In this document: positions 1 through 51,806 of the stretch, one piece after another
Layout of the letters: the number at the start of each line of letters is the position of its first letter
Numbering within the stretch: the first letter of the stretch is position 1
NCBI GenBank assembly: GCA_000002445.1
Contig: CM000208.1
Coordinates: forward strand, 1,728,001-1,792,000
Origin: Trypanosoma brucei
Taxonomy: Eukaryota
DNA length: 64,000 nucleotides
Reading direction: 5' to 3'
Translations under genes and position numbers: made by a program
Notes under the pieces: generated by a model
Told to the model about the DNA's origin: nothing
Databases searched by the model: none
The model's input: the letters and a program-made list of their open reading frames with translations, nothing else

Positions 1-362
1 CAAACAATACCCTCCAGGAAAATTAAAGCGGCGGGAGATTATAGCTAAGTGACTTCACAGAGGCACCAAAGGATGCCGTTAGCACAAAAAAACAGATTTC
101 ATATGTACTACATGTCACACGAAAAAAAAAGAGAGTTAATTTCAGGAGTAGTATACTAAAAGAGCAGCCAAAAAACCAGAATAAAATGAGGAAACTTTTG
201 ATACAAACACAAGAAAAAGTTTGTACGCCATTATTTGCTTAAATTTATCAAACATCAGATACAACCCGTTAGTATTAAACCCAGCCTGCGACAATTGCAA
301 CACAACATTTAAAAATGTTCTCTCCTTATTTCATAACGAAAAGTGAAGTGCACAACACAGCA

Positions 363-682
363 CCAACGCTGATAGAACATCAGGCAGCAAGGGTGACGCT
401 ACTGCCAAATGCGCCATAAGTGATGCCTACACGAGGAGTGCCATTAAGGCTTTTGCCTCCAACTTTCCAGAGGAACTGAACCGCGTTTTCATAGCCCATG
501 GGTTGCTTGACGAGAACGTTCACTTCTGTCACACGAGCGTTGTGGTTAATGCCATGATCGACGCGGGCAAACCGTGCTGCAGCGTTGTTTACCCTGGTGA
601 GCGCCACTCCCTTCGGAAGAAGAAGGCATCGCGACTACACCATGACGCGATGCTCGCAAAGACACTTATGGAGGTGCTTTAA
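363..682 (+). pseudogene. Truncated 3'-terminal fragment (last ~107 codons plus stop) of the S9/DPP8-like serine peptidase gene. It duplicates 10098..10417 and has no 5' part. The preceding 1..362 is AT-rich and non-coding.
   Basis: Near-identical nucleotide match to 10098..10417, with one A/G difference at 377 versus 10112. The fragment encodes ...GLLDENVHFCHTSVVVNAMIDAGKPCCSVVYPGERHSL... and ends at the same TAA. The upstream 362 bp shows no similarity to the peptidase body. Confidence 0.8.
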
Positions 683-948
683 TTGTGGACTACTTGCGTT
701 GTGTAGTGTACTGGTAGCGGTTGCTTAATTACGAGGGAAACATGCTTGTTGCACATCTGTGTGGCTGGGGATGTGCTTGACCAATAATGATGATAACATC
801 TGCGGCAGTGCTCGCGTGCACTTTAATTTATTTTTGTATGGGAAGAGTCACACACCATTTCTACCTTCCCTGCCTTCCGTGCTACAGTAGTTGTACCCGT
901 TTCCGCTGTGCTGCAACCAATATGTTCATTTCACTATGCATTTCCAAT

Positions 949-964
949 ACACACACACACACAT
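949..964. repeat. (AC)8 microsatellite, duplicated at 10684..10699 within the segmental duplication. Other dinucleotide microsatellites: (AT)n at 20633..20647, (TG)10 at 44708..44726, (CA)10 at 48689..48709.
   Basis: Seen directly. Confidence 0.9.
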
Positions 965-3605
965 GCACATACATTTTCCTTCTAGTATATGTACCGTAGC
1001 ACCACAACGAATGCCCACCACCCTTGTGAGAATGATGAGATTGCCATCATACTATTGGAAGACGAGTCTGAACCCTGATGCATTTTATCATGCGGCACTG
1101 ACGATCTTACATTGCGGTTAGTTGTGATCCCCTTGCCCATGTGTTTTTGTATGCTGCTTGCAGGAACGTGGCAGGCCACCGAGGTCACACTCGTGCTTCG
1201 CGTGGTTCAACAACATGGTCCCAGATTGTAGGTTCTTTGTTACTGGTGTGTATGATGAGAAACCTATTTTTATGTAACTCGGGAGAACTGAGCATATTAC
1301 CTGATGAGTAAACAATCAATCGTTAGATAGTAGCACTGATGTTACCTCTTGGTTTTATGTGTGTTGTAACTTTCCACTGTTGTCATTATCATCCCCTTTA
1401 ATAGCGAGTGGTCTTTGTGTGCATCTCCGCAAACCACTCGTCTACACCGGGGGAAAGATAAACGAGTGGAATGTTGTTAGTGTTGTGTGTCTGTGTCCGT
1501 CGTACTAGTAAAGGATGATGAGGATGCGGCCACCCCACGCGACGTGATGCGGTGTGTTGTTGACACTGCAGGCGTGTAGTTTCCCCTCCGCTGCCGTTGC
1601 AAAAGCAAACCCATTTTGGGCAACATACGCAGCCGCGCGCCACAAGACGCCTCCACCGCTCGACGGGGTGCCGCCATGACGCGGGTCCCGAGCCAAAGTC
1701 CCTCGCCCGAATTTCCGAAGGCAGTGAGTGCCTCGCGTGGGGAGACCTGCGCGCAGTAAAACCTCGTGCCGCTGGCGGTGCGGGGGCCACCGGCTGTGGT
1801 GGTTGATCCCCTCTGGTGGATCCCACAGCAGCAACTACGCGGGCCGTACTTTCGTCGGTGCGAGACTCCCCACCCGGTGGTATGAATGGCGGGCACCACT
1901 GAGTACACGTATAGCCATGAGCGGCATGTGCAGAAGAGGGCTTACAAAGGAGGCAGCGCGAGCGAGCGAATGGGTAACACTGGCGCGCTGCAGAGAAAGC
2001 AGCATCATTTCACCGCATCCGTTTGCGGGCGTGTGGTGCGCACCCGCTGACTCGCATATGCGTTCACATTCACCTCCTCCTTCTTTTCTCATTTTTATCC
2101 CCTACTTGAGAACAGATACAAACTACCCCACCTTGCCATACCCCTTCACACACCTATTATGTATTGTACCTGCACCATCACGTGATGAGCATTCAATTCA
2201 CATCGCGACACACCGATGATTCAAATGAGTGAGCTACGAATGGAATAAATTAAATCGAGAAAGAACAGCTGAGATGCCTACGTGCTTGTGCGCTTGTGCT
2301 ACTTCCCCTCTTGTAGTCCCCCTTCTATACCTGTGTCGTCGTCATTCCATCTTAATCGAAGGTGATGTCTGTTCCTGATGACGAGCACTCATTTCAAGCT
2401 GCGCGAGCATAAGCGTGTTGCTCCGTGGTCGGGTGACGTGCGAGACACCGCTCACACCCTATTACTGTGATGGGTGCCCACTAGCCTTGTGAGAATGATG
2501 AGATTGCCATCATACTATTGGAAGACGAGTCTGAACCCTGATGCATTTTATCATGCGGCACTGACGATCTTACATTGCGGTTAGTTGTGATCCCCTTGCC
2601 CATGTGTTTTTGTATGCTGCTTGCAGGAACGTGGCAGGCTACCGAGGTCACACTCGTGCTTCGCGTGGTTCAACAACATGGTCCCAGATTGTAGGTTCTT
2701 TGTTACTGGTGTGTATGATGAGAAACCTATTTTTATGTAACTCGGGAGAACTGAGCATATTACCTGATGAGTAAACAATCAATCGTTAGATAGTAGCACT
2801 GATGTTACCTCTTGGTTTTATGTGTGTTGTAACTTTCCACTGTTGTCATTATCATCCCCTTTAATAGCGAGTGGTCTTTGTGTGCATCTCCGCAAACCAC
2901 TCGTCTACACCAGGGGAAAGATAAACGAGTGGAATGTTGTTAGTGTTGTGTGTCTCTGTGCTTTGAGTTGCCTCCGGTGTTCTTAACCTCAGACTCTGCT
3001 CTTACAGTTTCCGGTTTATCGTTTTTTTTCCTTTTGCCTTCATGTAAATATCTTTTTTTTTATCCTCTTGTGTGAACTTTGTACGGATGCTTTCCATCAC
3101 GGTACAACATAAGTGAGGTGTGTATTTTGTGATGTAATGTGGTTCTCGCGAGTGACGACTGGCCGTTGACCGGTTTGATCATAATAGCGAGTACATTAGC
3201 GCTTCATGATGTTTGTCTTTGCCCTGACGGTGTGGCACTGCAGAACGGGACAAGCTAACGTATCTGTGCTATGTTTTTGTCTGTACGTGCATATAAGATT
3301 TGTTTACCCGACGTTATATATTTGTTTGTGTTCGTTATTGTACACGTGTCTCTTCGCTGCTTGCACGATCCTCTTGCTACAAGAGCGGACGACCGTAGCT
3401 GCATCGGTAATAACTCCAACTGCTTTACCTCACTTTTCTGTTCCTTGTGTGGTAAGCAAACTGGCAAAGGTCTTAGCGGTTCGTGTGATTAGCAACGAAT
3501 CAGTAGCGATAGCCACCACCGTATCGTTTCGAATAGACACACGGCGAAAGGTGAAGGGACGTGTGTTACATTGAGTAAAATTGCAGAGGCACAGTATCGT
3601 TGATT

Positions 3606-4685
3606 ATGTCGGCCGGATCTCGTGGCCCACTTTCCCTGCTCATTGCCCGTGAACGTGATGCCAATGGTGTGAATGGCGATGTGAATGCAACGGCTGGACG
3701 CCTGCGTGACCGATACGATGGGAAGGGTGCCTCCGCCAGTGAGCGACGGCAGGATGCGACATCGCTGACCAACGAGTACTACGATATCGTTACAGATTTC
3801 TATGAATACGGTTGGGGGCAAAACTTCCACTTTGCTCCTCGGTACATGAATGAGACGTTCTACGAATCACTCGCACGGTATGAGTACTTTCTTGCGTACC
3901 ATGCTCAGTTCAAACCGACGGACACTGTGCTAGACGTTGGCTGCGGGATTGGTGGGCCAGCACGAAACATGGTACGGTTCACATCGTGCAACGTGATGGG
4001 TGTAAATAATAATGAGTATCAAATAAATCGCGCGCGGCAGCACGATTCCCGCTACGGGATGAGCGGTAAAATTAACTACACTAAGACCGACTTCTGTAAC
4101 ATGTGCTTTGGCGACAACGAGTTCGACGGAGCATACGCCATCGAGGCGACATGCCACTCAGAGAGTAAGGTAAAGTGCTATAGTGAAGTGTTTCGCGCTA
4201 TCAAACCTGGTGCCTACTTTATGCTGTACGAGTGGTGTTTGACGGACCTGTATGACCCGGCAAATGAGGAACACCAGCGTGTCCGGCATGGTATCGAACT
4301 TGGCGACGGTCTTCCTGAACTCGACACGATGCGGCAGGTTGTCGCAGCGGTAAAGGCCGCCGGTTTCGTTGTGGAAGAGAGCTTTGACATGGCGGAACGA
4401 TTCGAAAGTGGCGAGCCGAAGAGCGTCCCGTGGTATGAGCCACTGCAGGGGAGTTACACGTCGCTGAGTGGACTTCGGGCGACCCCTGCAGGGCGCTGGT
4501 TGACGAGTGTAACATGTCGTTTGCTCGAGGCTGTGCGCCTCGCACCGGCAGGTACATGTAAGGCGACAGAGATCCTCGAAGAAGGAGCGGTGAACCTTGT
4601 CAAGGGGGGCGAACTTGGGATATTCACGCCATCCTTCTTTGTGAAGGCGCGTAAACCGCGTCTTGGGGAAGAGCTGTCGTGCTAA
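3606..4685 (+). CDS. SMT: Sterol 24-C-methyltransferase (SAM-dependent; ERG6/SMT family).
   Basis: The track ORF starts at TTG 3600; the first ATG is 3606 (MSAGS...). The protein carries the SAM-binding motif VLDVGCGIGGP and the conserved YEYGWGQNFHF and EATCHSE motifs. It aligns along its full length with kinetoplastid SMT (about 360 aa). Confidence 0.93.
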   Translation: MSAGSRGPLSLLIARERDANGVNGDVNATAGRLRDRYDGKGASASERRQDATSLTNEYYDIVTDFYEYGWGQNFHFAPRYMNETFYESLARYEYFLAYHAQFKPTDTVLDVGCGIGGPARNMVRFTSCNVMGVNNNEYQINRARQHDSRYGMSGKINYTKTDFCNMCFGDNEFDGAYAIEATCHSESKVKCYSEVFRAIKPGAYFMLYEWCLTDLYDPANEEHQRVRHGIELGDGLPELDTMRQVVAAVKAAGFVVEESFDMAERFESGEPKSVPWYEPLQGSYTSLSGLRATPAGRWLTSVTCRLLEAVRLAPAGTCKATEILEEGAVNLVKGGELGIFTPSFFVKARKPRLGEELSC

Positions 4686-6147
4686 CTGTGGCCGGGGACT
4701 ATTGGTGTTTTCTTTAGAGGGTAGCAGTCTCATTTGCTCCATATGTGAGAGTGCCCTTCAGCTTCATCTCGGCACAGAGGCCGCACGCTGTGAAGTAGTG
4801 CTTGTTTGGCAGGAAGGGGAGCGGTCAGTTTTGTTGCGGTCGACGTGGTGGTGGGTGTAACCGCTGTACGTATCAGTTAGCGTATTTTTAACCATATATT
4901 CCCCCTATTTCTCTATACTGTGAAGCACACACGTGCGCGGACACACTAATTATTATACGCACGCATATACGAGGCGTTACGGTGTATCGCGTTCCACCAC
5001 TTGCGCGTGACGGGACCCTTTGATCGTATTTAAATGCTGGTGTCTTCCACATACTCCTTCCTTCAGTCTGCCTTCAACTCCGGTGAGGCGGCTGTGACTT
5101 GCGTGAATGCGAGTGAGAGTGTGTTATGAACAGCAACGGACGGAATGAAGTTACTTGCATCCTGGTCAATACTGGACAGATGTGTGCCGATGTTCCGGCC
5201 TCGCCCCGGGTGTGGGTCGTTGACGGCACGAGTGGACGGGCGTGCCGCCGCCATTTGCGTGTCTTCCTTGTTCTTAATTTTCTCCGTTATTTTATATTTA
5301 TTTGTTAGCAATGGATTTCGGTGGTGATCGGTACGCGCGCGAACGAATATGTAATCCGCTGTTATTATTTGTTTTTGTTTTCGTTTTATTTTACCGGACG
5401 CACGGTGAGAGTGGTATGGCTGCGTTCTACACCCCACGATGTGTGAAAACGATATGCAGACCTGAACAGCTTTGCGGTGCGAAGTCCTGCAGCTCACCTA
5501 TGACTGTTGGTAGGCGTACGCACGGTTGTAAAAGTGTCACAAGGTTTGTTTATCGTGGCGGAGTCGATGGTAGAACGACCGCAGCGTGCCTTCGGCCATT
5601 TGCGTCATTGTGCATGCTTGGGTGGGCATGAGAGGTGTGAGTCCTCTTGGGGAGACGTGTGCTTGGCAGAGGCCTCTCTGCAATGAATTTACCAACAGTG
5701 TTATTTTCCCGTAGGTTTTGAGCCCTGTTGCACTTCTCTGACCGGCTTTCATCCCCTTAACCGCTACCCTCTTCCGTTTTGTAACTGAATCAGTATGTGT
5801 GCAGCACCATCTACATGGATCTGGTGTCTGTATATTCACACATATGCTTCCTTCCTCCTAATTGTTGATTGTTCTTCCGTTTGCGGGGTGGCATTTGGCT
5901 ATTGGGTGTGAAACACCGTGCCCGCAAGTATGTTGCTGATTTTTTCCCAACTACCTGCACCCTATTCAAACTGTTCTTTTCTGTTACTTTTCCATATGCT
6001 CCCTTTGTAGCCATTGAACGGTAAGCGTAAACAGCGTTGGCGCGTGCTTCCTCCAGAATCATTTATCTAATAAGGTCGGGGGTGTGAAGAAACATAAGTG
6101 GTTACTGACCCTTAACGCAGTGTCTTTGCAGTGAGCCTCACTGAAGC

Positions 6148-7110
6148 ATGGTAACACCCGAGCAAGCTGCCCTTATCGAGGGGGCGTTCCGTTCGATGGA
6201 CCGTGACGGTACGGGGCTGGTGCGACTTGAGGATATTTTCCGTGTCTTCGATGACTCGAGACATCCTCGTGTTCGCGACGGTGAGCTGGCTCCAGCAGCG
6301 ACGCGTGACATGCTGATGCACCAGTTTGGCGCAACCGCGCAGGCACACGGTGGCGTCTCGTTTGATGTGTTCATGCGCTTCCACGAACGTATGGCCGAAG
6401 ATGCAGCTGTTGCGAAGGTGAATGATAAAGAGTTGTTCCTCACGGACACCATAATTGGTGTCTGGCGCCTGGGCACGCTCCTTCAACCGACCCTCATTCG
6501 ACCTCTCTTTCCCGTTAATGTTCGTCCAAGCGGATTATACGCAACTCAGTACATGTCACTTGTGTGGGTAGACGAAGTCGCTGGTCCGGGGTCGTTCGTT
6601 GTACACGTCGTTCGCGATGTTGTGCGGCCGATATTCTCCCGGGGTGACCTACCGCCACAGTTACGTGGCATGTTCGCCTACCCGACAGAACTTGCAGGCA
6701 TGAAGATTATCGAGGAGCGCTTGCAGATCGCCACCCAACGATGGCTGGACTTTGTGTGGGAATACGAAGAAGGCAAGCACGCTGCCGTTCCTGGCATTAT
6801 ATCGGCTCGCGTCGATCCCGATACGCTTCCACAGTACCTCCGTGACATGATTGTGGAACATGATGTGGCAAAAGCGATACCTTCGCTGTTCTTTGTGCCA
6901 ACATCTGTGGCTGTTAACCCCATGTACAAGCGTTCAAGCGAGGAGTATGGCTACGGAGTTCCTGAAGAAGTAAAGCGTATGAGCAGGTGGAAGGACCTTA
7001 CCTATTCTGGTCAGGCGTGTGGGCTGATATACCATGGCCGCGTGGGAAAGTTCACAAGGGAACGGCTGAACGCGCCCGTACAGGATGTGGCTAGTGCAAT
7101 GAACATTTGA
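6148..7110 (+). CDS. Hypothetical protein, 320 aa, with an N-terminal EF-hand-like calcium-binding loop (DRDGTGLVRLED).
   Basis: ATG verified at 6148. A long ORF in a T. brucei-like codon context; one canonical EF-hand loop near the N-terminus; no other recognisable domain. Confidence 0.6.
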   Translation: MVTPEQAALIEGAFRSMDRDGTGLVRLEDIFRVFDDSRHPRVRDGELAPAATRDMLMHQFGATAQAHGGVSFDVFMRFHERMAEDAAVAKVNDKELFLTDTIIGVWRLGTLLQPTLIRPLFPVNVRPSGLYATQYMSLVWVDEVAGPGSFVVHVVRDVVRPIFSRGDLPPQLRGMFAYPTELAGMKIIEERLQIATQRWLDFVWEYEEGKHAAVPGIISARVDPDTLPQYLRDMIVEHDVAKAIPSLFFVPTSVAVNPMYKRSSEEYGYGVPEEVKRMSRWKDLTYSGQACGLIYHGRVGKFTRERLNAPVQDVASAMNI

Positions 7111-7864
7111 GGGACGCAATTCCGCTTTCCAACGTTTTGTTGCTTATGTATATGCTGGTTGCGGTGGTGTGTGTAATTTCCATTCGCTTATACACGGGCC
7201 GCTTGGTTGCTTTGGGAGAGACGGTTGACTTTCTTTACCGTGATGTTGCCCGCCGTTATAGTAACCCTACATTTTTCAATTGTTGTACCCTTCTGTTTTT
7301 ACCCCGCCATTATTTTAGTACCCATGCTATTGAGAGTTTTACTGGAATGGGAGTAATGGGGAAGTGTAGCTTAATATTTCTATACTTTCTCAAAAAATGA
7401 TGGACGTATTTGATTGATGTAGTGTCGATTTACATTGTGCCATTGCCGCGGTTTTATGAGCTGATCACAATCCCATTGTTTGTAGGTTGTGGAAGACCAG
7501 CGGCGGTCAGACAAAGGCGGTCGATGGTGGAACTCGTGGGCATGTCTACGGGTTGTGTAGTACGTGGGTGCGCAAGTGGGCATTACTCGTTGTTCTTATA
7601 CTTTGTGTTCTACCTTTGTGAAGTATGCCCCTTAAACAGCTTACCTGTAGCTCTATGCATCTATAGCTGTCAGTTCGCCACCCTTGCCAGCTTGGTGTGA
7701 GCATCTTTTCTTACTTGCAACAGCTTGTGTCTTGCGTTTTTCCTCTAACCTCCGCATCCCTAACCCTTAATGAGTGGGTATCTACTTTTTTGTTTTTAGT
7801 AACGAGCTTCATCACCTAGAAATAGTCCACCTCACGTAGTCAGTCAGGAAGAGAGGGGTGTAAA

Positions 7865-10417
7865 ATGCCGACCTTGCCTTTGTCGAAATATATTGATGAA
7901 CTAAAAGCTCTTGAGGGGCTCCTCGCTGTAGATGGGAAGCCTCGTATGTTGAAGTTTGTTGGTGATCAGCTGTATTGGCTGCAGGGTATGGATCAGGAAC
8001 TTTACAGTGTAAATATTGCAGATCACAACGCAACCCCGAGTCGCGTCATTGATCGCTGTCGGAAAGGTTGCACAGCTGCAGAAGGCAAGGAAGGTTCCAC
8101 TGTTGAGACAAAGGAGGAGGAGTTGCTGCGGGAGCGGCTGCGATCTCGCGTGACGGGCATCAGCAGCTACCGTGTACGGTGCAGGGACGGTGCTGTTTTC
8201 TTCACAAGTGGAGCAAACATATTTCTATACCGCCCCGCAAGCGGCAAACCACCGCTGAAAGTACTTGACTATATCGGTGATGAGGAACTGAAGCAACGCT
8301 TCTCCTCAGAGAAGAAACCATTTCTCTGCATTGAATACTTTTCCCACTTGGCGAATGATGCGGGTGCATGTGATTCAACCAAGGAGCGTGCCGACGTGAT
8401 CTCTTTTGTGTACAGCAATAACTTGTATATTGCGACCGTTGTGGAAGGTAGTGGTGAGGCCAGCCACTCAAGGGAACCACCCTTGAGGGTGAATGTGGAA
8501 TGCGTGACAACTTTCGGCGACGAGTTACACAGTTGTGGGGACGCCGACTACATTATCCAGGAGGAATTCGGTCGTTACACCGGGCACTACGCCACAGCTG
8601 AATATGTGCTGTTCAGCTATACAGACGTGTCCATGCTGCGCGAGGTGATGCTAATTGACGGTTCGACTGACTCTGGTGTGGAAAAGATGCCGTACTGCCG
8701 TGTTGGTGACCCGAATGCCCGCACTGTGCTCGTAGTGTACGAAAGGCGGACAAAGCGTTATCGTGTTGTCCCGAGCAGTGCTATTGCAGCCATTGCACCG
8801 TGGGCGGAGTACATGCCTCGGTTTGGGTTTAAGGACGAACACACCATTTACTTTTCTGTTCTCAGTCGCACGCAGGAGAAAATGTCTCTCCTTTCGTGCC
8901 GTATTAACTCTCTACCTGTTGTTGATGCGGAAGCACTTGCATCGTGCTTTTCCGAAGCAGCGCGTGACACTGATGTCGCAGCGGTGGCTGCAGGAACAAC
9001 ACTGGCTACCCGTGCGGCGACAGTCAATCTCACCACAGAGTGGCACCAGCATATACCGTGGGCATGGGTAGATGTCCAACCCGGTGTCGCACTTCACCTT
9101 TGCGGCAAGTATGAAGTGCTCGTTCGCCACGCCAATGAGAGTGAGAGTGCGCACAGTCATGTGTACGCCCGTGCTCAAGGGGGTGATGAGGGTTCGTGGC
9201 GACCACTTACCTGTGGCGCTTGGAACGTGAGAGCTGGAGGCCTTATAGTGAAGGACGACAGGGTTTTCTTCCTTGCTAATGCAAGAAACAGGCTGGAGAG
9301 TGTGCTATACAGCGTTGTGATAAACCTGGATGCAGGTCCTGTTTCTGCCGAGGAGCTGACACAGCTAACACCCTCCGGCGAGCACGTGTACTCTTTCGCA
9401 GTGTTGAACAATACACTTTGCTATGTGTCGAGCACTGCGACCACACCAGCAGAGCTTCACATCTCCTCAATAAACAACCCTGGAAGCCGCTGGGTCGTTC
9501 CGACGCGGCATCTGTGGGATGATACCAGCGAAAAGGCAGTCACCCCACGTACAACGCTCGAGGGACTCACCGTCCCGCACATTATCAACATCGTGAACCG
9601 CCGTGGTGTTCCACTCAGTGGCCGACTGTTTGTATCTCCTCACGCGGCACTAGGTAAGCTGAACCCTTTAGCAATGTATATCTATGGTGGTCCCCACGCA
9701 CAACTCGTGTACGACAGTGACTTCGACGGTGCCTGCAAGCCAATTTTCCAGATGCTGGCGAGCTTTGGTATATCCGTACTTGTCGCTGACGGTCAAATGA
9801 GCAATGCGAATGGCCTACGGGACCATAGCATCTGCAAGCACAGCATGGGGAGCTTTGAGACCTCCGATTACGTGGATTGGGTGCGGCACATGACAAACTG
9901 CAAGGAACTACCGTGTGGGTTTTGTGCGGATCCTGAACGGGTTGCCATCTTCGGCTGGTCGTATGGAGGTTATGCAACACTGCTTGCAATGTCGCAGGCT
10001 CCAGATGTGTTTAAGATAGGGTTTGCAGGGGCACCTGTGGGGGATTGGACTCTCTATGACACTGGATACACAGAGCGCTATATGGGTCTGCTGCACACCA
10101 ACGCTGATGGAACATCAGGCAGCAAGGGTGACGCTACTGCCAAATGCGCCATAAGTGATGCCTACACGAGGAGTGCCATTAAGGCTTTTGCCTCCAACTT
10201 TCCAGAGGAACTGAACCGCGTTTTCATAGCCCATGGGTTGCTTGACGAGAACGTTCACTTCTGTCACACGAGCGTTGTGGTTAATGCCATGATCGACGCG
10301 GGCAAACCGTGCTGCAGCGTTGTTTACCCTGGTGAGCGCCACTCCCTTCGGAAGAAGAAGGCATCGCGACTACACCATGACGCGATGCTCGCAAAGACAC
10401 TTATGGAGGTGCTTTAA
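7865..10417 (+). CDS. Serine peptidase, clan SC family S9 (dipeptidyl-peptidase 8-like / prolyl oligopeptidase fold), 850 aa.
   Basis: ATG at 7865. The C-terminal alpha/beta-hydrolase domain carries the catalytic Ser in GWSYGGY, the Asp in HGLLDENVHF and the His in GERHSL. The N-terminal region matches a beta-propeller in length. Confidence 0.88.
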   Translation: MPTLPLSKYIDELKALEGLLAVDGKPRMLKFVGDQLYWLQGMDQELYSVNIADHNATPSRVIDRCRKGCTAAEGKEGSTVETKEEELLRERLRSRVTGISSYRVRCRDGAVFFTSGANIFLYRPASGKPPLKVLDYIGDEELKQRFSSEKKPFLCIEYFSHLANDAGACDSTKERADVISFVYSNNLYIATVVEGSGEASHSREPPLRVNVECVTTFGDELHSCGDADYIIQEEFGRYTGHYATAEYVLFSYTDVSMLREVMLIDGSTDSGVEKMPYCRVGDPNARTVLVVYERRTKRYRVVPSSAIAAIAPWAEYMPRFGFKDEHTIYFSVLSRTQEKMSLLSCRINSLPVVDAEALASCFSEAARDTDVAAVAAGTTLATRAATVNLTTEWHQHIPWAWVDVQPGVALHLCGKYEVLVRHANESESAHSHVYARAQGGDEGSWRPLTCGAWNVRAGGLIVKDDRVFFLANARNRLESVLYSVVINLDAGPVSAEELTQLTPSGEHVYSFAVLNNTLCYVSSTATTPAELHISSINNPGSRWVVPTRHLWDDTSEKAVTPRTTLEGLTVPHIINIVNRRGVPLSGRLFVSPHAALGKLNPLAMYIYGGPHAQLVYDSDFDGACKPIFQMLASFGISVLVADGQMSNANGLRDHSICKHSMGSFETSDYVDWVRHMTNCKELPCGFCADPERVAIFGWSYGGYATLLAMSQAPDVFKIGFAGAPVGDWTLYDTGYTERYMGLLHTNADGTSGSKGDATAKCAISDAYTRSAIKAFASNFPEELNRVFIAHGLLDENVHFCHTSVVVNAMIDAGKPCCSVVYPGERHSLRKKKASRLHHDAMLAKTLMEVL

Positions 10418-12345
10418 TTGTGGACTACTTGCGTTGTGTAGTGTACTGGTAGCGGTTGCTTAATTACGAGGGAAACATGCTTGTTGCACATCTGTGTGGC
10501 TGGGGATGTGTTTGACCAATAATGATGATAACATCTGCGGCAGTGCTCGCGTGCACTTTAATTTATTTTTGTATGGGAAGAGTCACACACCATTTCTACC
10601 TTCCCTGCCTTCCGTGCTACAGTAGTTGTACCCGTTTCCGCTGTGCTGCAACCAATATGTTCATTTCACTATGCATTTCCAATACACACACACACACATG
10701 CACATACATTTTCCTTCTAGTATATGTACCGTAGCACCACAACGAATGCCCACCACCCTTGTGAGAATGATGAGATTGCCATCATACTATTGGAAGACGA
10801 GTCTGAACCCTGATGCATTTTATCATGCGGCACTGACGATCTTACATTGCGGTTAGTTGTGATCCCCTTGCCCATGTGTTTTTGTATGCTGCTTGCAGGA
10901 ACGTGGCAGGCTACCGAGGTCACACTCGTGCTTCGCGTGGTTCAACAACATGGTCCCAGATTGTAGGTTCTTTGTTACTGGTGTGTATGATGAGAAACCT
11001 ATTTTTATGTAACTCGGGAGAACTGAGCATATTACCTGATGAGTAAACAATCAATCGTTAGATAGTAGCACTGATGTTACCTCTTGGTTTTATGTGTGTT
11101 GTAACTTTCCACTGTTGTCATTATCATCCCCTTTAATAGCGAGTGGTCTTTGTGTGCATCTCCGCAAACCACTCGTCTACACCGGGGGAAAGATAAACGA
11201 GTGGAATGTTGTTAGTGTTGTGTGTCTGTGTCCGTCGTACTAGTAAAGGATGATGAGGATGCGGCCACCCCACGCGACGTGATGCGGTGTGTTGTTGACA
11301 CTGCAGGCGTGTAGTTTCCCCTCCGCTGCCGTTGCAAAAGCAAACCCATTTTGGGCAACATACGCAGCCGCGCGCCACAAGACGCCTCCACCGCTCGACG
11401 GGGTGCCGCCATGACGCGGGTCCCGAGCCAAAGTCCCTCGCCCGAATTTCCGAAGGCAGTGAGTGCCTCGCGTGGGGAGACCTGCGCGCAGTAAAACCTC
11501 GTGCCGCTGGCGGTGCGGGGGCCACCGGCTGTGGTGGTTGATCCCCTCTGGTGGATCCCACAGCAGCAACTACGCGGGCCGTACTTTCGTCGGTGCGAGA
11601 CTCCCCACCCGGTGGTATGAATGGCGGGCACCACTGAGTACACGTATAGCCATGAGCGGCATGTGCAGAAGAGGGCTTACAAAGGAGGCAGCGCGAGCGA
11701 GCGAATGGGTAACACTGGCGCGCTGCAGAGAAAGCATCATCATTTCACCGCATCCGTTTGCGGGCGTGTGGTGCGCACCCGCTGACTCGCATATGCGTTC
11801 ACATTCACCTCCTCCTTCTTTTCTCATTTTTATCCCCTACTTGAGAACAGATACAAACTACCCCACCTTGCCATACCCCTTCACACGCCTATTATGTATT
11901 GTACCTGCACCATCACGTGATGAGCATTCAATTCACATCGCGACACACCGATGATTCAAATGAGTGAGCTACGAATGGAATAAATTAAATCGAGAAAGAA
12001 CAGCTGAGATGCCTACGTGCTTGTGCGCTTGTGCTACTTCCCCTCTTGTAGTCCCCCTTCTATACCTGTGTCGTCGTCATTCCATCTTAATCGAAGGTGA
12101 TGTCTGTTCCTGATGACGAGCACTCATTTCAAGCTGCGCGAGCATAAGCGTGTTGCTCCGTGGTCGGGTGACGTGCGAGACACCGCTCACACCCTATTAC
12201 TGTGATGGGTGCCCACTAGCCTTGTGAGAATGATGAGATTGCCATCATACTATTGGAAGACGAGTCTGAACCCTGATGCATTTTATCATGCGGCACTGAC
12301 GATCTTACATTGCGGTTAGTTGTGATCCCCTTGCCCATGTGTTTT
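10098..12345. repeat. Segmental duplication, copy 2 (the parental copy): the 3' end of the intact peptidase gene plus its downstream region. It contains 1.09 tandem copies of the ~1.47-kb unit (10743..12218, then a partial unit at 12219..12345).
   Basis: Matches 363..2953 (see copy 1). The internal repeat 12219..12345 equals 10743..10869. Confidence 0.9.
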
Positions 12346-12382
12346 ATCTCTTTGTGTTTTTTTTTGACATTAGTTTGTACGC

Positions 12383-12937
12383 ATGTCGTCTTTAGACTCT
12401 GTTAGAGAAGATATCCTCGATGTTTTTCATATTTTTGATGAAGACGGATCGGGCAGCATTACTATGCAAGAGCTCAAAAGGGCAATTTACACAATAACTG
12501 GAATTCGTATATCGCGTATTGATCTTTCCATACTGGTTCGGACATGTAAAGAAGAGATGTTGAAGGAGTCTGCCAGGAAATCGGAAGCTGGTGCTAATGT
12601 AGCTGGAAAAGCGGGGGAAAAGTTGTGGACACCTGAACCGGAGTCTGAGGTGAACACTGTTGATCCTCAGTTGTTTGCAGCTGTTGTGTTGAAGACGTTG
12701 AATAGACGAACGCAGGAGCAGGAACTGCTTTTTACCTTCCGTCTTCTCGAAGATAAGGATTATCCAGGTTTTATTACGAAAGATAGTTTGAAACGGGCAT
12801 CTGCAGATATTGACGAGCATTTGACAGATCAGGAGGTGAATGAGATGTTTGACAAACTTGTCACCGGGGTGTCCGCTGCTGCAATCGATTTTGTAACTTT
12901 TTCTTCGCTGATGGAAACACTACGAAAGTCGATTTAG
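12383..12937 (+). CDS. EF-hand domain protein (calmodulin/centrin-like), 184 aa.
   Basis: ATG at 12383. Canonical EF-hand loop DEDGSGSITMQEL; a second degenerate loop DKDYPGFITKDS. Confidence 0.7.
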   Translation: MSSLDSVREDILDVFHIFDEDGSGSITMQELKRAIYTITGIRISRIDLSILVRTCKEEMLKESARKSEAGANVAGKAGEKLWTPEPESEVNTVDPQLFAAVVLKTLNRRTQEQELLFTFRLLEDKDYPGFITKDSLKRASADIDEHLTDQEVNEMFDKLVTGVSAAAIDFVTFSSLMETLRKSI

Positions 12938-13534
12938 TTGCCGGAGTTTGTGTCTGCTTCTGTTGCGTGCAGCTTTTGTGGTGCTTCTTATTTATATTTC
13001 ATTGAGGTTGGGTCGCGCCCGTGAAAGTGCTCTGCTCTGACATATTTGTATATGTTTCTAATAGTTTTAGCTTGTTGCTTCATTCCTTCGCATTGTTGGG
13101 TGGCAGCAACGGAGAGGCTCCGTTTTTCATCTCTTTCTGCTCTTTTGCAGTGTTCTACCGGATGCTGCTGGATGTTATTTTCGTCTGTTTGTTTGTTTGT
13201 TTTTTCGTTCCCCTGTTTGCTTTCTCGAGAATTGATGGATGTACATGTGTGTTCTTTCTTTCGTTGGAGTATGTCATGTCAGAGGTTGGAGGTATTCTTT
13301 TCTCAAGGACGCTTGGATGAGGCTGATTCTTTTTTTTGTCACTTTTCACGCCCTTTGGTTAGCTTAGTCACTGTCTCATAAGGAGGGAAGGGGGTCACGT
13401 AAGGAGGGGTCGGCGACAGCAAGGATAACAGAACAAAAACTGCTGCGGGGTGAAAGCAAAAAGTCCTCTTGTTTTATAGTAAAAAAAAAAAAAGAAGAGG
13501 TGTAGAACCGTTGTCTCCCCCACAAAAGTTTGCA

Positions 13535-13981
13535 ATGACTGGCAATTCGCATTGTGTCTTGTGTAAGCGTTCCTTTGGCATTTTTTTGTGGAAACACAAA
13601 TGTGCGAAGTGTAATAGAAATGTCTGCGACGATTGTGCACCGAAAGTGAGTGGAGTGAGAAAATGTGAAGAGTGTTCCGCAGTGAAACCGGCTGACAGTA
13701 GCGCAAAGACCCCAGCGAACCAACCGCGTGTTCAGGGGTCAGAGGAAAATCCCGTCCTTGAAGCTGCCATGCGCCGCAGACAACAACACATGCTCGGAGT
13801 GGGGCCAAATACTGTTAACTCAGAGGAAAAAATTAGGCTGCTAACAGAGATTACTACAATCCTGAAACAGCGTGGAGAAGACGAACCGTTCGGTCTTCGC
13901 TCTATGGACGAAACAAAGCTGCGTGTTTACCTTCGGCATATTCGAGAAAAATACGGGATTACGGCTGTTAAACAATCATAG
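13535..13981 (+). CDS. Small FYVE-type zinc-finger protein (~148 aa).
   Basis: The track ORF starts at TTG 13469, inside a poly(A) tract; the first ATG is 13535. Cys pattern CVLCKRSFGIFLWKHKCAKCNRNVCDDC...CEEC. It resembles the FYVE consensus C-x2-C...(R/K)HHC-x-x-CG...C-x2-C, including the basic WKHKC patch. Confidence 0.6.
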   Translation: MTGNSHCVLCKRSFGIFLWKHKCAKCNRNVCDDCAPKVSGVRKCEECSAVKPADSSAKTPANQPRVQGSEENPVLEAAMRRRQQHMLGVGPNTVNSEEKIRLLTEITTILKQRGEDEPFGLRSMDETKLRVYLRHIREKYGITAVKQS

Positions 13982-15356
13982 GACCAGCAGCGATACGATG
14001 CGCATTTCCCAGACCATTTTTTGTACCCCATTGATGAGGATGTGGGAAAAGAAAAAGATGAATACAGTGCGGCTGCCAGACGTATGTGCCTCTTAATTGC
14101 ACGCAGCAATGTGCGCATTTTGTAGTCTGCTCCGTAATGACTTGTTTGATATTTCTTACGAGTTGTGGCAGCCTGCGACTTAACACGCTTGTGGTAACAC
14201 CCAGACCATATCATGCGCGGGAGTTGGTGGCAAACAGTCCGTCGTTGCCTCCCTAAATATTTTTTTTTGTGTCAGCTCCCTTTCTTTCAGTAATGGAAAG
14301 GACATGTTTAAACGAAATGTGAGGTGAATAATTGCATTGCCGTTTTGAAGGTGTGTGTTTTTCTCCCCGCTGGTGATCTGGCAACGCCAGGACCAATGAC
14401 AGTTCTCGTGTGATGTCATGATGATTGAAACCGGGTCGTGTAAGTGCGTAAAATCATCATCGAGTGTATCGCGGGCTCACAGGATCCAATCAATGGGGGA
14501 GAGGAGAAAATATTGATTTGATTGCAGGAATTAAAGTGTGACACCGCCCCGGTGCTGGAGAGAGATAGAGAAGTCGTGGAGATATTATGAATTCTGTAAT
14601 GGAATATCTTTTCTCTTGCGCAAACTCCTCCAGGACGGAAAGGCGACAGTTGTGTTTTGTTTGCTTTGTGAGGTATTTGGTGTTGGTGTCTGTTTACAAT
14701 GGAATAAAGGGAGAAAAGGTTGGGTGCATCAAAAAGCATCTGAAGGAAGGCAGTGGACATTTTCGAGAATGTAGGAAAAGAGAGATATCCATACTTTTTT
14801 TTCTTTTACCTTGTGCCGTGGATGGTGCCGAATTGTGGAGGTATTCTATTTTCTTTTGTACCTTTATATAATATGTAGGATGGGCAGTTATCATTATTAG
14901 CGTCCGGAGATTTTTAAAACGTTACTTTGTGTGTGTCGAACATTTTTGGGGGAACACAGTATTTATTGTTTTTTTCCGTCGGGGCGGTTGGTCGTTTTGT
15001 GAATGCAGCTTCCCGGTTATTTTCAAGTTCGTTTCCGAATATGTCACGTGGAGTTGAACGCTATGTGGCAGTGTTAACGTTGTTCGCGTGGCATTTCGTA
15101 AGCATGATGTGTTCAGTTTCCAGAAACTTGTGCATATATATATATATCCTATATTATTTTCTGCAAAATGCCTTCATTCACATTTACCATTCACCGTCGC
15201 CGTTTCCTTTTTTCTCTGGAAGCCGAGTGGCATCCTGCACTCGCCAAAACCAGTAATAGAAAAGAAAGTAGGGTACTCATAGCGAACTGCGTAAGCGCCG
15301 GCGTGTGCGCTTCGCAGAACATAGAGAAGTTGTGGAAGGCGCGCTGTAGGTTTGAC

Positions 15357-49248: not shown

Positions 49249-50754
49249 ATGCCTTACGCCTGCCTCCATGGCGGTTCTCTGTGCTTGTTGATATCGCTGC
49301 TTTCGTGCCTCGGTGCCCAGGCAGTACAAACCCTACACCTTGTGCAGCTTGTCCACCGTCACGGAGCGCGGTCTCCCAAGGTAAAACACAATCAAAGTCA
49401 AATATGCGGTGAGGTGCCGTGTGGGTATCTGAACGCTGCCGGGAAGATGATGCTAGTCAATGCAGGTGAATTTCTTAGGAATCACTACAACAGTAACGCA
49501 TCTGAGCCTTTCTTCCCGGAGGAGAGTTACAACTCCTGTGTGACCTACTCGCGTTCCACAGATGTCCCGCGTACGCTGCAGAGCGCTGGGTGTCTTCTGC
49601 GCGGAATGTTCCCCAATGCGTCGGAATTCTTTCCAGCTATACACACTGCAGATGTGAGTACCGATTGGCTACTGCGTTACGACGTGATACCTCAAGCATA
49701 CGCCTTCAGTCATTTAGATGAGCATTGGTGGAGAAATGTGTGTAACCCAAAGCTGGACACGCTTATCGACACCAACACGTTGTTATCCGTTTCGCGGGAG
49801 GTGTTCAGTGAAGGGTTCTGCGCTGATCCACAAAACCGGTGCCATTGCGCGGCGACGCTGTTCGACATTGGTGTCGCCATGCAGTCCGACGGTCGCATCG
49901 ATAAACACCCACTTTTGAGGGAAAATCTCGGCCGGTTGCGCGATATCAAGTTCTTTGAGGATTCTCACCGATTTGTTTACAACGCCTCTGATCGTACGCA
50001 CGCAAAGATGGGGAGTTTGGGGCAGCACCTTGCTCAGGAAATTTTGAAAAATGCGGAGAATCATATGAATGGACTAACGTCGTACAAACTCTATCACTAC
50101 AGCGCACATGACACAACGATAGCACCACTGGCTGCGACACTCGGGGACAGCACAACCACTGGAATCACGCCACCTTACGGTCAGCTGTATGCTTTTGAAC
50201 TGCTGTACGACCACGAAGTTAAAGGGTATATTATTCGGATAAGGCGCGGTGCGCCAGGTCAGAAACCCGAGGAAGGCTATGCATTTAGTTGGGGAGAGTT
50301 TCAGATGAAATGCATGAACGAAAACCACACTGTTTACACAGCTGAGGACAACAAGTGCCCTTACCACGACTTCCGGCGGTTCGTGAAATCCACCAAACCG
50401 CATGATCCCGCGGGACTTTGTTATCTCAACCGGAGGTACCGCGAGCTTTTCCACTGCCCGGGAAATGTTGGAAAACCACCTAATAAGCAGTGCAAAGTCT
50501 TTCGGCGTGTGTGTCCAGCGTGGTCCTGCGAAGAAGGTTACACGTTGAACAGTGTTACCTTAGAGTGCGTGTGCAGTTCCAGGAAATGTATGGAGAATCG
50601 TGACCTGAGCATCAGCACTGACACACTTGGCAGGAATCTTTTCACCATCTTCATCTTTGTGCTCTTGGCACTTCTCATCCCTATTTTTTCCGTATTCGTG
50701 TGCATCGGTAAAAAATTGCGGGCACGAACCCGCAGAACGAGGGCGAAGGGCTAG
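49249..50754 (+). CDS. Membrane-bound histidine acid phosphatase (type I membrane protein: signal peptide, luminal phosphatase domain, C-terminal TM plus a short basic tail).
   Basis: The track start at 49123 is TTG; the first ATG is 49249 (MPYACLHGGSLCLLISLLSCLGAQA). RHGxRxP motif in LVHRHGARSPK. C-terminal TM LFTIFIFVLLALLIPIFSVFVCIG followed by KKLRARTRRTRAKG. It is a paralogue of the 19266 gene. Confidence 0.8.
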   Translation: MPYACLHGGSLCLLISLLSCLGAQAVQTLHLVQLVHRHGARSPKVKHNQSQICGEVPCGYLNAAGKMMLVNAGEFLRNHYNSNASEPFFPEESYNSCVTYSRSTDVPRTLQSAGCLLRGMFPNASEFFPAIHTADVSTDWLLRYDVIPQAYAFSHLDEHWWRNVCNPKLDTLIDTNTLLSVSREVFSEGFCADPQNRCHCAATLFDIGVAMQSDGRIDKHPLLRENLGRLRDIKFFEDSHRFVYNASDRTHAKMGSLGQHLAQEILKNAENHMNGLTSYKLYHYSAHDTTIAPLAATLGDSTTTGITPPYGQLYAFELLYDHEVKGYIIRIRRGAPGQKPEEGYAFSWGEFQMKCMNENHTVYTAEDNKCPYHDFRRFVKSTKPHDPAGLCYLNRRYRELFHCPGNVGKPPNKQCKVFRRVCPAWSCEEGYTLNSVTLECVCSSRKCMENRDLSISTDTLGRNLFTIFIFVLLALLIPIFSVFVCIGKKLRARTRRTRAKG

Positions 50755-51532: not shown

Positions 51533-51754
51533 TCATGCATGTAGCCTCGCAACTCCACGGAGCAGTTGGACTTCCTCGAGTTTTCTGTCAGCCTCCATGA
51601 GTTTCTGCTCGACGAAACCGTGCACAGCCTTTAGTTTTTTTGAGGTATTACATAACGCTTTTATTGCGGACAATTTCAAAGCTGCCCCAGCGTCCGCATG
51701 ATGACAACAACCACTTACTAACGCCACTACTAAAAATGCCACTGTTCTTCGCAT
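51533..51754 (-). pseudogene. Truncated copy B of a signal-peptide protein gene (73 codons from ATG: MRRTVAFLVVALVSGCC..., then a stop). It is paralogous to the decayed copy A upstream.
   Basis: The ATG at 51754-51752 was verified. Its N-terminal region aligns with copy A: CCHHADAGAALKLSAIKALCNTSKKLKAVHGFVEQK against CHFAFADSGALSLSGAAEALRNASGKLKSVYAFVQAK. Confidence 0.6.
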
Positions 51755-51806
51755 TTGCTGAAGAAAACAAAAGATGCCTGGCACCTGCAACCCACTAAGT
51801 TTTCCC

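What the first reader, a model, noticed from the sequence alone, without database searches (positions are those of the whole stretch)
363..12345. Segmental duplication: a truncated copy of the peptidase 3' end and its downstream flank sits upstream of SMT
The last 107 codons of the S9 peptidase gene, its stop, and ~1.9 kb of downstream sequence (10098..12345) recur at 363..2953 at about 99% identity. The upstream copy lacks the entire 5' 2.2 kb of the gene: 1..362 is unrelated AT-rich DNA. It therefore looks like a breakpoint left by unequal crossover or a partial tandem duplication. The duplication now brackets SMT and a 320-aa EF-hand gene. Both duplicate blocks are followed by a gene that opens with an EF-hand (6148 and 12383), which may be a trace of an ancestral repeat [peptidase - flank - EF-hand gene] into which SMT now falls. 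The few differences (A/G at 377 versus 10112; GGLPRS versus GSLPRS in the internal unit) show that the 2477..2953 partial unit is closer to copy 2 than to its own neighbour. That points to gene conversion or a recent origin.
Basis: seen in the sequence. Interest (0 to 1): 0.62.

Follow-up and report, generated by a model that had tools for sequence, protein, structure and literature searches.

The report
Repeated snoRNA/MRP cluster, collapsed trypanosome locus
The repeat is real, but it is a known Trypanosoma brucei small-RNA gene cluster dragging along the tail of a peptidase gene, and it sits next to the sterol methyltransferase gene here most likely because this old chromosome 10 assembly leaves out about 17.6 kb that lies between two copies of the repeat.

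Summary
The duplication is confirmed. Window 361-2610 equals 10096-12345 (2250 bp, 5 mismatches, no gaps). A second, partial 1463-bp unit follows at 2475-2959.

The "flank" is non-coding. It is the TB10Cs1 snoRNA cluster: H/ACA snoRNAs H1, H2 and H3, three C/D-like snoRNAs, and the RNase MRP RNA gene. A 2010 supplement lists two MRP copies on Tb927_10_v4 that are 9735 bp apart, which is exactly this offset.

The window is T. b. brucei TREU927 chromosome 10 as held in GenBank. Its protein accessions run GAPDH, SMT, EF-hand, DPP8, caltractin (EAN78101-78105).

In T. b. equiperdum and T. b. gambiense the same truncated junction sits upstream of the base-J glucosyltransferase gene (JGT), not SMT. 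The order there is JGT, SMT, EF-hand, cullin-F, then a full-length DPP8 and its cluster. Equiperdum then has a second, cullin-less unit identical in layout to window 361-14686.

TREU927 itself holds the missing genes, first as separate records Tb10.v4.0246-0249 and later as Tb927.10.6900-6940.

So the truncated relic is real and shared across the subgenus. Its position beside SMT is most likely an assembly collapse (about 17.65 kb omitted). A real deletion haplotype is less likely.

This is ordinary and already known. Interest is low.

The parts
1..360 (+). A-rich sequence downstream of the cytosolic GAPDH gene (called 'X' here). It forms the left side of the truncation junction.
   Evidence: It aligns to equiperdum L001 2958-3314 and gambiense L003 4396-4755. 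In L003 GAPDH ends at 4145, so window base 1 is 251 bp past the GAPDH stop. GC is 36%.
361..682 (+). Truncated DPP8-like S9 peptidase relic: codons 744-850 plus the stop. It is a pseudogene fragment.
   Evidence: Identical to 10096-10417 except at 374. The frame opens only at 347 and there is no in-frame ATG before the fragment. The nucleophile motif GWSYGG (aa 697) lies upstream of the breakpoint. The same junction occurs in equiperdum and gambiense.
683..1011 (+). Sequence 3' of DPP8, a duplicate of 10418-10746.
1012..2474 (+). One full 1463-bp TB10Cs1 unit. Contents in order: C/D-like snoRNA 1032-1101; H/ACA H3 1154-1225; C/D-like 1252-1341; H/ACA H1 1390-1460; RNase MRP RNA; C/D-like 2182-2273; H/ACA H2 2384-2446. 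The MRP RNA has a conserved core at 1588-1969 and would span about 1478-1998 if the window starts at chr10 v4 base 1,728,001.
   Evidence: Rfam gives 87-97 bits against gathering scores of 45-50. Islands are conserved with the T. cruzi cluster, and C and D boxes sit at the island ends. The MRP coordinates come from PMC3091756 supplementary file 2.
2475..2959 (+). Partial second unit (485 bp): C/D-like 2495-2564, H3 2617-2688, C/D-like about 2715-2804, H1 2853-2923.
2960..3021 (+). A 55-bp 'tail' shared by repeat copies Ra and Rb of equiperdum, followed by the junction into the polypyrimidine region upstream of SMT. In Ra the tail runs instead into JGT upstream sequence.
   Evidence: The tail has no significant similarity to the JGT-SMT spacer.
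3606..4685 (+). Sterol 24-C-methyltransferase (EAN78102.1), the copy belonging to the cullin-less second unit.
   Evidence: Tb927.10.6910 and Tb927.10.6950 are both annotated as SMT (PMC3957582).
6148..7110 (+). 320-aa EF-hand protein (EAN78103.1) carrying the unit-2 C-terminal signature RERLN..A.
   Evidence: The separate TREU927 record Tb10.v4.0248 carries the unit-1 signature RERRD..G.
7358..7395 (+). A unique 38-bp filler at the place where unit 1 holds the 4.5-kb cullin-F block.
7865..10417 (+). Full-length DPP8-like S9 peptidase (EAN78104.1 / XP_822932.1).
10096..12345 (+). Copy 2 of the repeat, at the ancestral position of the cluster. It comprises the DPP8 3' end, a full unit at 10747-12209 (H3 10889-10960, H1 11125-11195, H2 12119-12181, MRP core 11323-11704), and a 136-bp partial unit at 12210-12345 holding one C/D-like snoRNA (12230-12299).
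   Evidence: T. cruzi has the cluster between DPP8 and the 188-aa EF-hand gene.
12383..12937 (+). Caltractin-like 184-aa EF-hand gene (EAN78105.1), the ancestral right-hand neighbour of the cluster.

Best explanation
The repeated block is the last 107 codons of the DPP8-like peptidase gene followed by the TB10Cs1 small-RNA cluster. That cluster is made of tandem 1463-bp units, each holding three H/ACA snoRNAs, about three C/D snoRNAs and the RNase MRP RNA gene.

The ancestral home of the cluster is between DPP8 and the caltractin-like gene, which is copy 2 here.

In the T. brucei group the complete locus carries this block three times. The order is:
1. GAPDH, then X, then Ra (the truncated relic).
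2. JGT, SMT, EF-hand-320, cullin-F, DPP8 with Rb.
3. SMT, EF-hand-320, DPP8 with Rc.
4. Caltractin.

The window is the GenBank TREU927 chromosome 10 record. In it the path jumps from Ra into Rb. These two blocks are about 2.65 kb long and about 99% identical. The roughly 17.65 kb between them (JGT, SMT-1, EF-hand-1, cullin-F, the 5' part of DPP8-1) is left out.

The truncated relic is therefore genuine, but its position directly upstream of SMT is most likely an assembly collapse.

Shown: the anatomy, the RNA genes, the three-copy layout in another assembly, and that TREU927 holds the omitted genes elsewhere.

Inferred:
- That the omission is an artefact rather than a second haplotype.
- That the extra cluster copies are expressed because they lie in the same polycistronic unit.
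- That the blocks act as substrates for unequal homologous recombination. This would explain the differences in unit number (one in gambiense, two in equiperdum and TREU927) and in cluster-unit number (0.33, 1.09 or 1.33).
For: (1) Repeat coordinates and identity.

(2) Rfam hits to TB10Cs1H1, H2 and H3 in every copy at 87-97 bits.

(3) MRP RNA. PMC3091756 supplementary file 2 lists MRP on Tb927_10_v4 at 1729478-1729998 and 1739213-1739733. The spacing is 9735, which equals 10096 minus 361. The GC-rich core 1588-1969 is 80% identical to T. cruzi (E = 9e-91) with no codon periodicity and with frame-breaking indels.

(4) Source of the window. Its proteins are exact matches to TREU927 EAN78102-78105, and EAN78101 is cytosolic GAPDH. 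All are on a 4,054,025-bp record.

(5) Comparison with other assemblies.
- Window 1-3014 aligns to equiperdum L001 2958-5961, upstream of JGT.
- Window 361-14686 is collinear with L002 6740-21080.
- The Ra-to-Rb offset is 17,652 bp.
- Gambiense has X, Ra, JGT, SMT, EF-hand, cullin, DPP8, cluster, caltractin.
- These loci contain no Ns.

(6) TREU927 holds the omitted genes. JGT is Tb10.v4.0246 (CAJ16957), the EF-hand gene is Tb10.v4.0248 (CAJ16959) and cullin is Tb10.v4.0249 (CAJ16960). The SMT sequence also carries UniProt accession Q4FKJ2, which falls between those of Tb10.v4.0246 (Q4FKJ3) and Tb10.v4.0248 (Q4FKJ1), so it is probably Tb10.v4.0247 (inferred). Later identifiers are Tb927.10.6900 JGT.6910 SMT.6930 Cul-F and .6940/.6970 'two identical tandem copies' of DPP8.

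(7) Paralogue-specific EF-hand-320 residues place the window copy in unit 2 and Tb10.v4.0248 in unit 1.

(8) Outgroups. T. cruzi and T. vivax have EF-hand-320, cullin, DPP8. T. cruzi has two cluster units between DPP8 and EF-hand-188.
Against: - I could not read the current TREU927 chromosome (v5.1) or any sequencing reads. 'Collapse' is therefore inferred from gene identifiers, separate records and other strains.
- The Tb10.v4 records could in principle be the other haplotype of a heterozygous strain.
- SNPs in the window's Ra/Rb hybrid do not reveal a switch point.
- The equiperdum chromosome appears to be strain IVM-t1, although no tool result links GCA_003543875.1 to that strain. If it is, it was built from MiSeq reads plus very low PacBio coverage, and its chromosomes were constructed against TREU927. 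Its two-unit order is then not fully independent evidence.
- The gambiense single-unit layout may itself be collapsed.
Confidence: 0.78

Rival explanations
1. The arrangement is a real haplotype. Unequal homologous recombination between Ra and Rb deleted 17.65 kb (JGT, one SMT, one EF-hand gene, cullin-F, the 5' part of DPP8) on one TREU927 chromosome 10 homologue. The Tb10.v4 contig would then be the undeleted homologue.
For: - Ra and Rb are about 2.65 kb long and about 99% identical, so they are good recombination substrates.
- The number of SMT/DPP8 units and of cluster units differs between assemblies.
- The omitted genes were deposited as a separate TREU927 record, as is often done for divergent alleles.
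Against: - Later TREU927 gene numbering places 6900-6940 on chromosome 10 between GAPDH and SMT 6950.
- No other assembly examined shows the X - repeat - SMT adjacency.
- A repeat of this size is a classic cause of collapse in a Sanger-era assembly (general knowledge, not tested here).
Confidence: 0.12
2. The window's left part is correct, but the unit order is reversed. The true order would be X, repeat, cullin-less unit, repeat, JGT unit, repeat, caltractin. The omitted 17.65 kb would then belong after copy 2 rather than before copy 1.
For: With three near-identical blocks, the pairing of what enters and what leaves each block is ambiguous for short reads. That ambiguity is a general property of assembly graphs, not something measured here.
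Against: - Gambiense and equiperdum both join X and Ra to JGT.
- Gambiense Ra is only about 1.2 kb, which read pairs can easily span.
- The block in front of caltractin has the distinctive 136-bp partial unit in every assembly and follows a DPP8 gene.
- TREU927 numbering puts JGT (6900) before SMT 6950.
Confidence: 0.05
3. One reading: a partial tandem duplication formed in place and brackets SMT. It would be a trace of an ancestral repeat [peptidase - flank - EF-hand gene], with SMT inserted later and gene conversion between copies.
For: - Both blocks are followed, at some distance, by a gene with an N-terminal EF-hand.
- One SNP is shared between the partial unit and copy 2.
Against: - The two EF-hand proteins are not homologous beyond one loop (E = 0.1).
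- In T. cruzi SMT is already upstream of EF-hand-320, cullin, DPP8, cluster and EF-hand-188. T. vivax has EF-hand-320, cullin, DPP8.
- In complete loci the truncated copy sits in front of JGT, not SMT.
Confidence: 0.03

Closest known systems
TB10Cs1 snoRNA cluster of T. brucei (Rfam RF01522, RF01523, RF01524; C/D members C1-C4 studied in PMC6411936)
   Same: It has the same RNA genes, tandem-unit organisation and position on chromosome 10. Trypanosomatid snoRNA clusters are transcribed polycistronically and processed (PMC6562600).
   Different: Nothing differs in kind. What this analysis adds is that each locus copy drags the DPP8 3' end with it and that one copy is a relic cut off from its gene.
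T. brucei RNase MRP RNA gene (Barth et al. 2008, as listed in PMC3091756 supplementary file 2)
   Same: Two copies are listed on Tb927_10_v4, on the + strand, 521 nt each and 9735 bp apart. That is exactly the offset of this duplication.
   Different: The Rfam RNase_MRP model does not recognise it (8.8 bits against a gathering score of 50, E = 3.3). The complete locus in equiperdum holds three full units (Ra, Rb, Rc) and gambiense Ra holds none. The copy number in the literature therefore reflects this assembly version.
The tandem gene pairs Tb927.10.6910/6950 (SMT) and Tb927.10.6940/6970 (DPP8) of the current TREU927 annotation
   Same: This is the same locus. Window 361-14686 is the second unit.
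   Different: The window lacks the first unit. The second unit lacks JGT and cullin-F and has a 38-bp filler where cullin-F would be.
Adjacent tandem SMT gene pairs in other trypanosomatids (T. cruzi seen here; Leishmania from my own recollection, where recombination between the copies has been linked to amphotericin B resistance)
   Same: SMT is duplicated and flanked by sequence that can recombine.
   Different: In T. cruzi the two SMT genes are direct neighbours. In T. brucei they are 14.2 kb apart in separate multi-gene units. The duplications therefore look independent.

Membership tests
TB10Cs1 H/ACA snoRNAs (RF01522, RF01523, RF01524) | A match to the curated covariance model above its gathering score | tested here: met
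   Eight hits at 87.3-97.2 bits against gathering scores of 45-50, all full length. The same families are found in the equiperdum, gambiense and T. cruzi loci.
Box C/D snoRNAs of the cluster | C box (RUGAUGA) near the 5' end, D box (CUGA) at the 3' end, and conservation across species | tested here: met
   1032-1101, 1252-1341 and 2182-2273 carry the boxes at their ends. They coincide with islands conserved with T. cruzi at about 71-86% identity. Which one corresponds to the published C1-C4 was not determined.
RNase MRP RNA | Published gene coordinates for this strain | tested here: met
   The two listed copies are 9735 bp apart on the + strand of Tb927_10_v4, the same as the repeat offset. 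The exact window coordinates depend on the assumed window start.
RNase MRP RNA | A match to Rfam RF00030 above its gathering score | tested here: not met
   There is only an 8.8-bit local match (E = 3.3) at 1695-1732 to model positions 71-101. Trypanosomatid MRP RNA is reported to be very divergent (PMC3091756).
RNase MRP RNA | A conserved, non-coding, structured RNA | tested here: inconclusive
   It is 80% identical to T. cruzi over 393 aligned columns, with no codon periodicity (mismatches 24/30/23) and with indels. The folding z-score is only -0.30 in this GC-rich sequence.
Functional S9 (DPP8-like) peptidase gene, for 361-682 | A complete open reading frame with the Ser-Asp-His triad | tested here: not met
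   There is no start codon, the frame opens only at 347, and the Ser nucleophile motif GWSYGG (aa 697) lies before the breakpoint at aa 744.
Ordinary tandem multi-gene duplication | A full-length upstream paralogue next to the repeat copy | tested here: met
   This is met in T. b. equiperdum, where DPP8 (L002 4509-7061) is followed by the cluster and then SMT. It is also met in the TREU927 literature. It is not present in the window itself, where X precedes the repeat.
Assembly collapse across a repeat | The omitted segment exists in the same strain, the flanking repeats are long and near-identical, and a later version restores the segment | tested here: met
   Tb10.v4.0246, 0248 and 0249 are TREU927 records. 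The repeats are 2.65 kb at 99% identity. Identifiers Tb927.10.6900-6940 are in use. The v5.1 sequence itself was not seen.
Assembly collapse across a repeat | Read-level evidence (depth, spanning reads) | not testable with these tools
   No reads or later assembly version were available.
Retroposed / processed pseudogene | A poly(A) tail, loss of intergenic sequence, target-site duplication | tested here: not met
   The copy carries about 2.3 kb of downstream non-coding sequence and cluster DNA. No poly(A) tail and no flanking direct repeat are present at the junctions.

The most novel reading that the evidence does not exclude
The GenBank arrangement is a genuine TREU927 haplotype. Recombination between two copies of the MRP/snoRNA-cluster block would have deleted 17.65 kb, including the base-J glucosyltransferase, one SMT copy and cullin-F, on one homologue. 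If so, these small-RNA cluster repeats would drive copy-number variation of drug- and epigenetics-relevant genes in natural T. brucei populations.
Probability: 0.12. Interest if true: 0.4.

Novelty: already known. Interest (0 to 1): 0.15.

Why it matters
The value is mainly practical. Anyone using the GenBank/RefSeq TREU927 chromosome 10 record will miss several genes at this locus:
- JGT (Tb927.10.6900);
- one SMT copy;
- one EF-hand gene;
- cullin-F;
- one DPP8 copy.

They will also under-count the copies of the snoRNAs and of the MRP RNA. The 2010 list of MRP genes gives two copies, which matches this assembly version.

Biologically, the locus is a tidy example of near-identical small-RNA cluster blocks acting as likely substrates for unequal recombination. 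Unit numbers differ between gambiense, equiperdum and brucei assemblies. None of this is unexpected for trypanosome tandem arrays.

Tried and rejected
- **Lister 427 label.** I first took GCA_003543875.1 for Lister 427. The protein names show it is T. brucei equiperdum, and I corrected this.
- **Exact-protein look-ups.** Searches for the window's DPP8 and EF-hand-320 in the contig collection found nothing. The source was identified through cluster membership instead.
- **Recombination switch point.** I looked for a switch point in the window's upstream block using paralogue-specific SNPs. The sites are too few and are homogenised within strains.
- **Origin of the 55-bp tail.** I tested whether the tail (2960-3014) derives from the JGT-SMT spacer, which would order the duplication events. 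The local score was 17, against a shuffle mean of 16. The order of events remains unresolved.
- **Origin of the 38-bp filler.** I searched the locus for a source of the filler at the cullin position. It is unique.
- **Coding potential of the GC-rich block.** The ORFs at 1728-2219 (+ strand) and 1477-1908 (- strand) were rejected as genes because the block shows no periodicity and has frame-breaking indels against T. cruzi.
- **RNA folding.** The folding z-score of the MRP region was uninformative.
- **Retroposition and mobile elements.** Both were considered for the X junction and rejected: there is no poly(A) tail and no target duplication.
- **tRNA genes.** None were found in the window.
Full report

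Yes. A self-comparison of the window gives 361-2610 = 10096-12345: 2250 bp, 5 mismatches, no gaps, 99.78% identity (seeds).

The offset is 9735 bp. The copy begins at the third base of codon His744 of the 850-aa peptidase (7865-10417). It therefore holds 107 codons and the stop, at 361-682.

Bases 1-360 are A-rich (36% GC) and unrelated to the peptidase.

Inside each copy there is a 1463-bp periodicity: 1012-1496 = 2475-2959 = 10747-11231.
- Copy 1 has one full unit plus 485 bp of a second.
- Copy 2 has one full unit plus 136 bp (12210-12345).

The A/G difference is at 374/10109.

**2. What is the 'flank'?**

It is not anonymous DNA and not coding. Rfam places the H/ACA snoRNAs as follows, at 87-97 bits against gathering scores of 45-50:
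- TB10Cs1H3 at 1154-1225, 2617-2688 and 10889-10960.
- TB10Cs1H1 at 1390-1460, 2853-2923 and 11125-11195.
- TB10Cs1H2 at 2384-2446 and 12119-12181.

Three further islands are conserved with the orthologous T. cruzi cluster: 1032-1101, 1252-1341 and 2182-2273. Each begins with a C box and ends with a D box. C/D members C1 and C4 of this cluster are studied in PMC6411936.

The most conserved part is the GC-rich block 1588-1969. It is 80% identical to T. cruzi (E = 9e-91). Its substitutions show no codon periodicity (24/30/23) and it has frame-breaking indels, so the long ORFs there are spurious.

The supplement of PMC3091756 lists the T. brucei RNase MRP RNA gene (Barth et al. 2008) on Tb927_10_v4 at 1729478-1729998 and 1739213-1739733, + strand. 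The spacing is 9735 bp, identical to the repeat offset. If the window starts at base 1,728,001, these copies fall at 1478-1998 and 11213-11733, over the GC-rich block.

Rfam's own RNase_MRP model gives only an insignificant local match at 1695-1732. The folding z-score is uninformative.

**3. Where does the window come from?**

Its proteins are exact matches to T. b. brucei TREU927 entries on a 4,054,025-bp record:
- EAN78102 (SMT)
- EAN78103 (320-aa EF-hand protein)
- EAN78104 (DPP8-like peptidase)
- EAN78105 (caltractin)
- EAN78107 (395-aa hypothetical protein) and EAN78113 (NUP93), further downstream

EAN78101 is cytosolic GAPDH. In that record, therefore, GAPDH is followed directly by SMT. 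This fits window base 1 lying 251 bp past the GAPDH stop, judged against gambiense.

**4. The same locus elsewhere**

In T. b. equiperdum (GCA_003543875.1) the order is as follows:
- GAPDH, X, Ra (truncated relic plus cluster)
- JGT (655 aa, PF20691)
- SMT, EF-hand-320, cullin (1166 aa)
- DPP8 with Rb
- SMT, EF-hand-320, DPP8 with Rc
- caltractin

How the window maps onto this:
- Window 1-3014 matches X plus Ra, upstream of JGT.
- Window 361-14686 is collinear with the second unit.
- Ra and Rb are 17,652 bp apart.

Compared with unit 1, unit 2 lacks a 3451-bp JGT block and a 4512-bp cullin block. The cullin block is replaced by a unique 38-bp filler, at window 7358-7395.

T. b. gambiense DAL972 has the same X|relic junction in front of JGT and, in that assembly, a single unit. 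Its Ra holds only the 485-bp partial cluster unit.

The truncated junction is therefore genuine and shared across the subgenus. In these assemblies, however, it never abuts SMT.

**5. Ancestral state**

T. cruzi has SMT, SMT, EF-hand-321, cullin, DPP8, two cluster units (H3, H1, H2 twice, period about 1419 bp), then EF-hand-188. T. vivax has EF-hand-320, cullin, DPP8.

From this:
- The cluster downstream of DPP8 (copy 2 here) is ancestral.
- The relic upstream of JGT and the cullin-less unit are derived in the T. brucei lineage.

The two EF-hand genes are not paralogues (E = 0.1). This removes the proposed ancestral repeat.

**6. Why does the window differ?**

TREU927 does hold the omitted genes.
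- JGT, the EF-hand gene and the cullin exist as separate records: Tb10.v4.0246, 0248 and 0249 (CAJ16957, CAJ16959, CAJ16960).
- The literature uses Tb927.10.6900 for JGT.6910 and .6950 for SMT, and .6930 for cullin-F.
- It describes .6940 and .6970 as 'two identical tandem copies' of DPP8.

Counting genes from SMT to the alternative oxidase fits Tb927.10.6950 to .7090 without a cullin in between. This rests on my own knowledge of those two identifiers.

Paralogue-specific residues of the EF-hand-320 protein give a further check:
- The signature RERRD..G occurs in the copy next to cullin in gambiense and T. equiperdum OVI. It also occurs in the lower-numbered equiperdum gene, which I take to be the unit-1 copy.
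- The signature RERLN..A occurs in the higher-numbered equiperdum gene, taken as the unit-2 copy.
- The window copy carries the unit-2 signature, and Tb10.v4.0248 carries the unit-1 signature.

The simplest reading is that the old chromosome record passes from Ra into Rb, which are about 2.65 kb long and about 99% identical. This omits about 17.65 kb.

I cannot exclude that the record shows a real deletion haplotype. No reads or later sequence were available, and SNPs give no switch point.

The equiperdum chromosome appears to be strain IVM-t1, although I could not link GCA_003543875.1 to that strain. If it is, it was built with little long-read data and ordered against TREU927. The region has no gaps.

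**7. How it works (inferred)**

Trypanosomatid snoRNA clusters are transcribed polycistronically and processed (PMC6562600). The snoRNA and MRP copies next to the relic sit in the same transcription direction as their neighbours. They are identical or nearly so to the ancestral copies. They are therefore probably expressed and simply add gene dosage.

The DPP8 fragment is dead. It has no start codon and lacks the Ser nucleophile.

The blocks are likely substrates for unequal homologous recombination. This would account for the varying numbers of units and cluster repeats among assemblies.

Alleles are shared by all copies within a strain but differ between strains. At window sites 1977, 2072, 2077, 2162, 2177 and 2223, both window copies carry one base and all three equiperdum copies the other. 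This points to concerted evolution.

How the relic first arose is unresolved. The junction shows no useful microhomology and the 55-bp tail has no traceable source.

**8. Verdict**

The feature is a known locus: the tandem DPP8 and SMT pairs, the TB10Cs1 cluster and the MRP RNA copies are all in the literature. Its odd appearance here most likely comes from the assembly version.

Interest is low. The practical point is that the GenBank TREU927 chromosome 10 record lacks JGT, cullin-F and one copy each of SMT, the EF-hand gene and DPP8 at this position.

Noticed in passing
window 1478-2060 and 11213-11795: The RNase MRP RNA region is flanked by a C-box-like AUGAUGA (1515-1521) and a D-box-like CUGA (2047-2050). 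Both are conserved in the T. cruzi alignment. This suggests a C/D-type terminal architecture for this long RNA. Rfam's RNase_MRP model does not detect the gene.
   Followed up: partly
window 56394-59840 (- strand); repeat array 56737-59656: A 1148-aa ORF consists almost entirely of about 80 tandem copies of a 36-bp (12-aa) unit, TGDCNETDDC(N/D)I, at about 97% identity. It has a hydrophobic N-terminus and a C-terminal membrane-like segment. Such an array is itself prone to assembly collapse.
   Followed up: no
window 7358-7395: A unique 38-bp filler (GGGGAAGTGTAGCTTAATATTTCTATACTTTCTCAAAA) sits exactly where the first unit carries the 4.5-kb cullin-F block. No source for it was found in the locus.
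   Followed up: partly
L003 4755-5960 (T. b. gambiense) versus window 361-3014: The gambiense relic block holds only the 485-bp partial cluster unit (H3 and H1, with no MRP RNA and no H2). The TREU927 and equiperdum blocks hold 1.33 units. The number of cluster-unit and MRP genes therefore varies between subspecies or assemblies.
   Followed up: partly
L014 1-2388 (T. cruzi): T. cruzi has two SMT genes side by side. The two T. brucei SMT copies are 14.2 kb apart in separate multi-gene units. SMT seems to have been duplicated independently in the two lineages.
   Followed up: no
window 6148-7110 and alignment A1: The two paralogues of the 320-aa EF-hand protein carry a stable C-terminal signature across strains: RERRDAPVQDVG in one and RERLNAPVQDVA in the other. 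They therefore escape the homogenisation seen in the repeat blocks.
   Followed up: partly
window 1177 versus 2640 and 10912: A C-to-T change lies inside snoRNA TB10Cs1H3 in two of its three window copies. It lowers the Rfam score from 91.5 to 89.4. All equiperdum and gambiense copies have C.
   Followed up: partly
window about 50750-52200: Coding strand orientation switches here from + to - (a convergent strand-switch region). No tRNA genes were found anywhere in the window.
   Followed up: no
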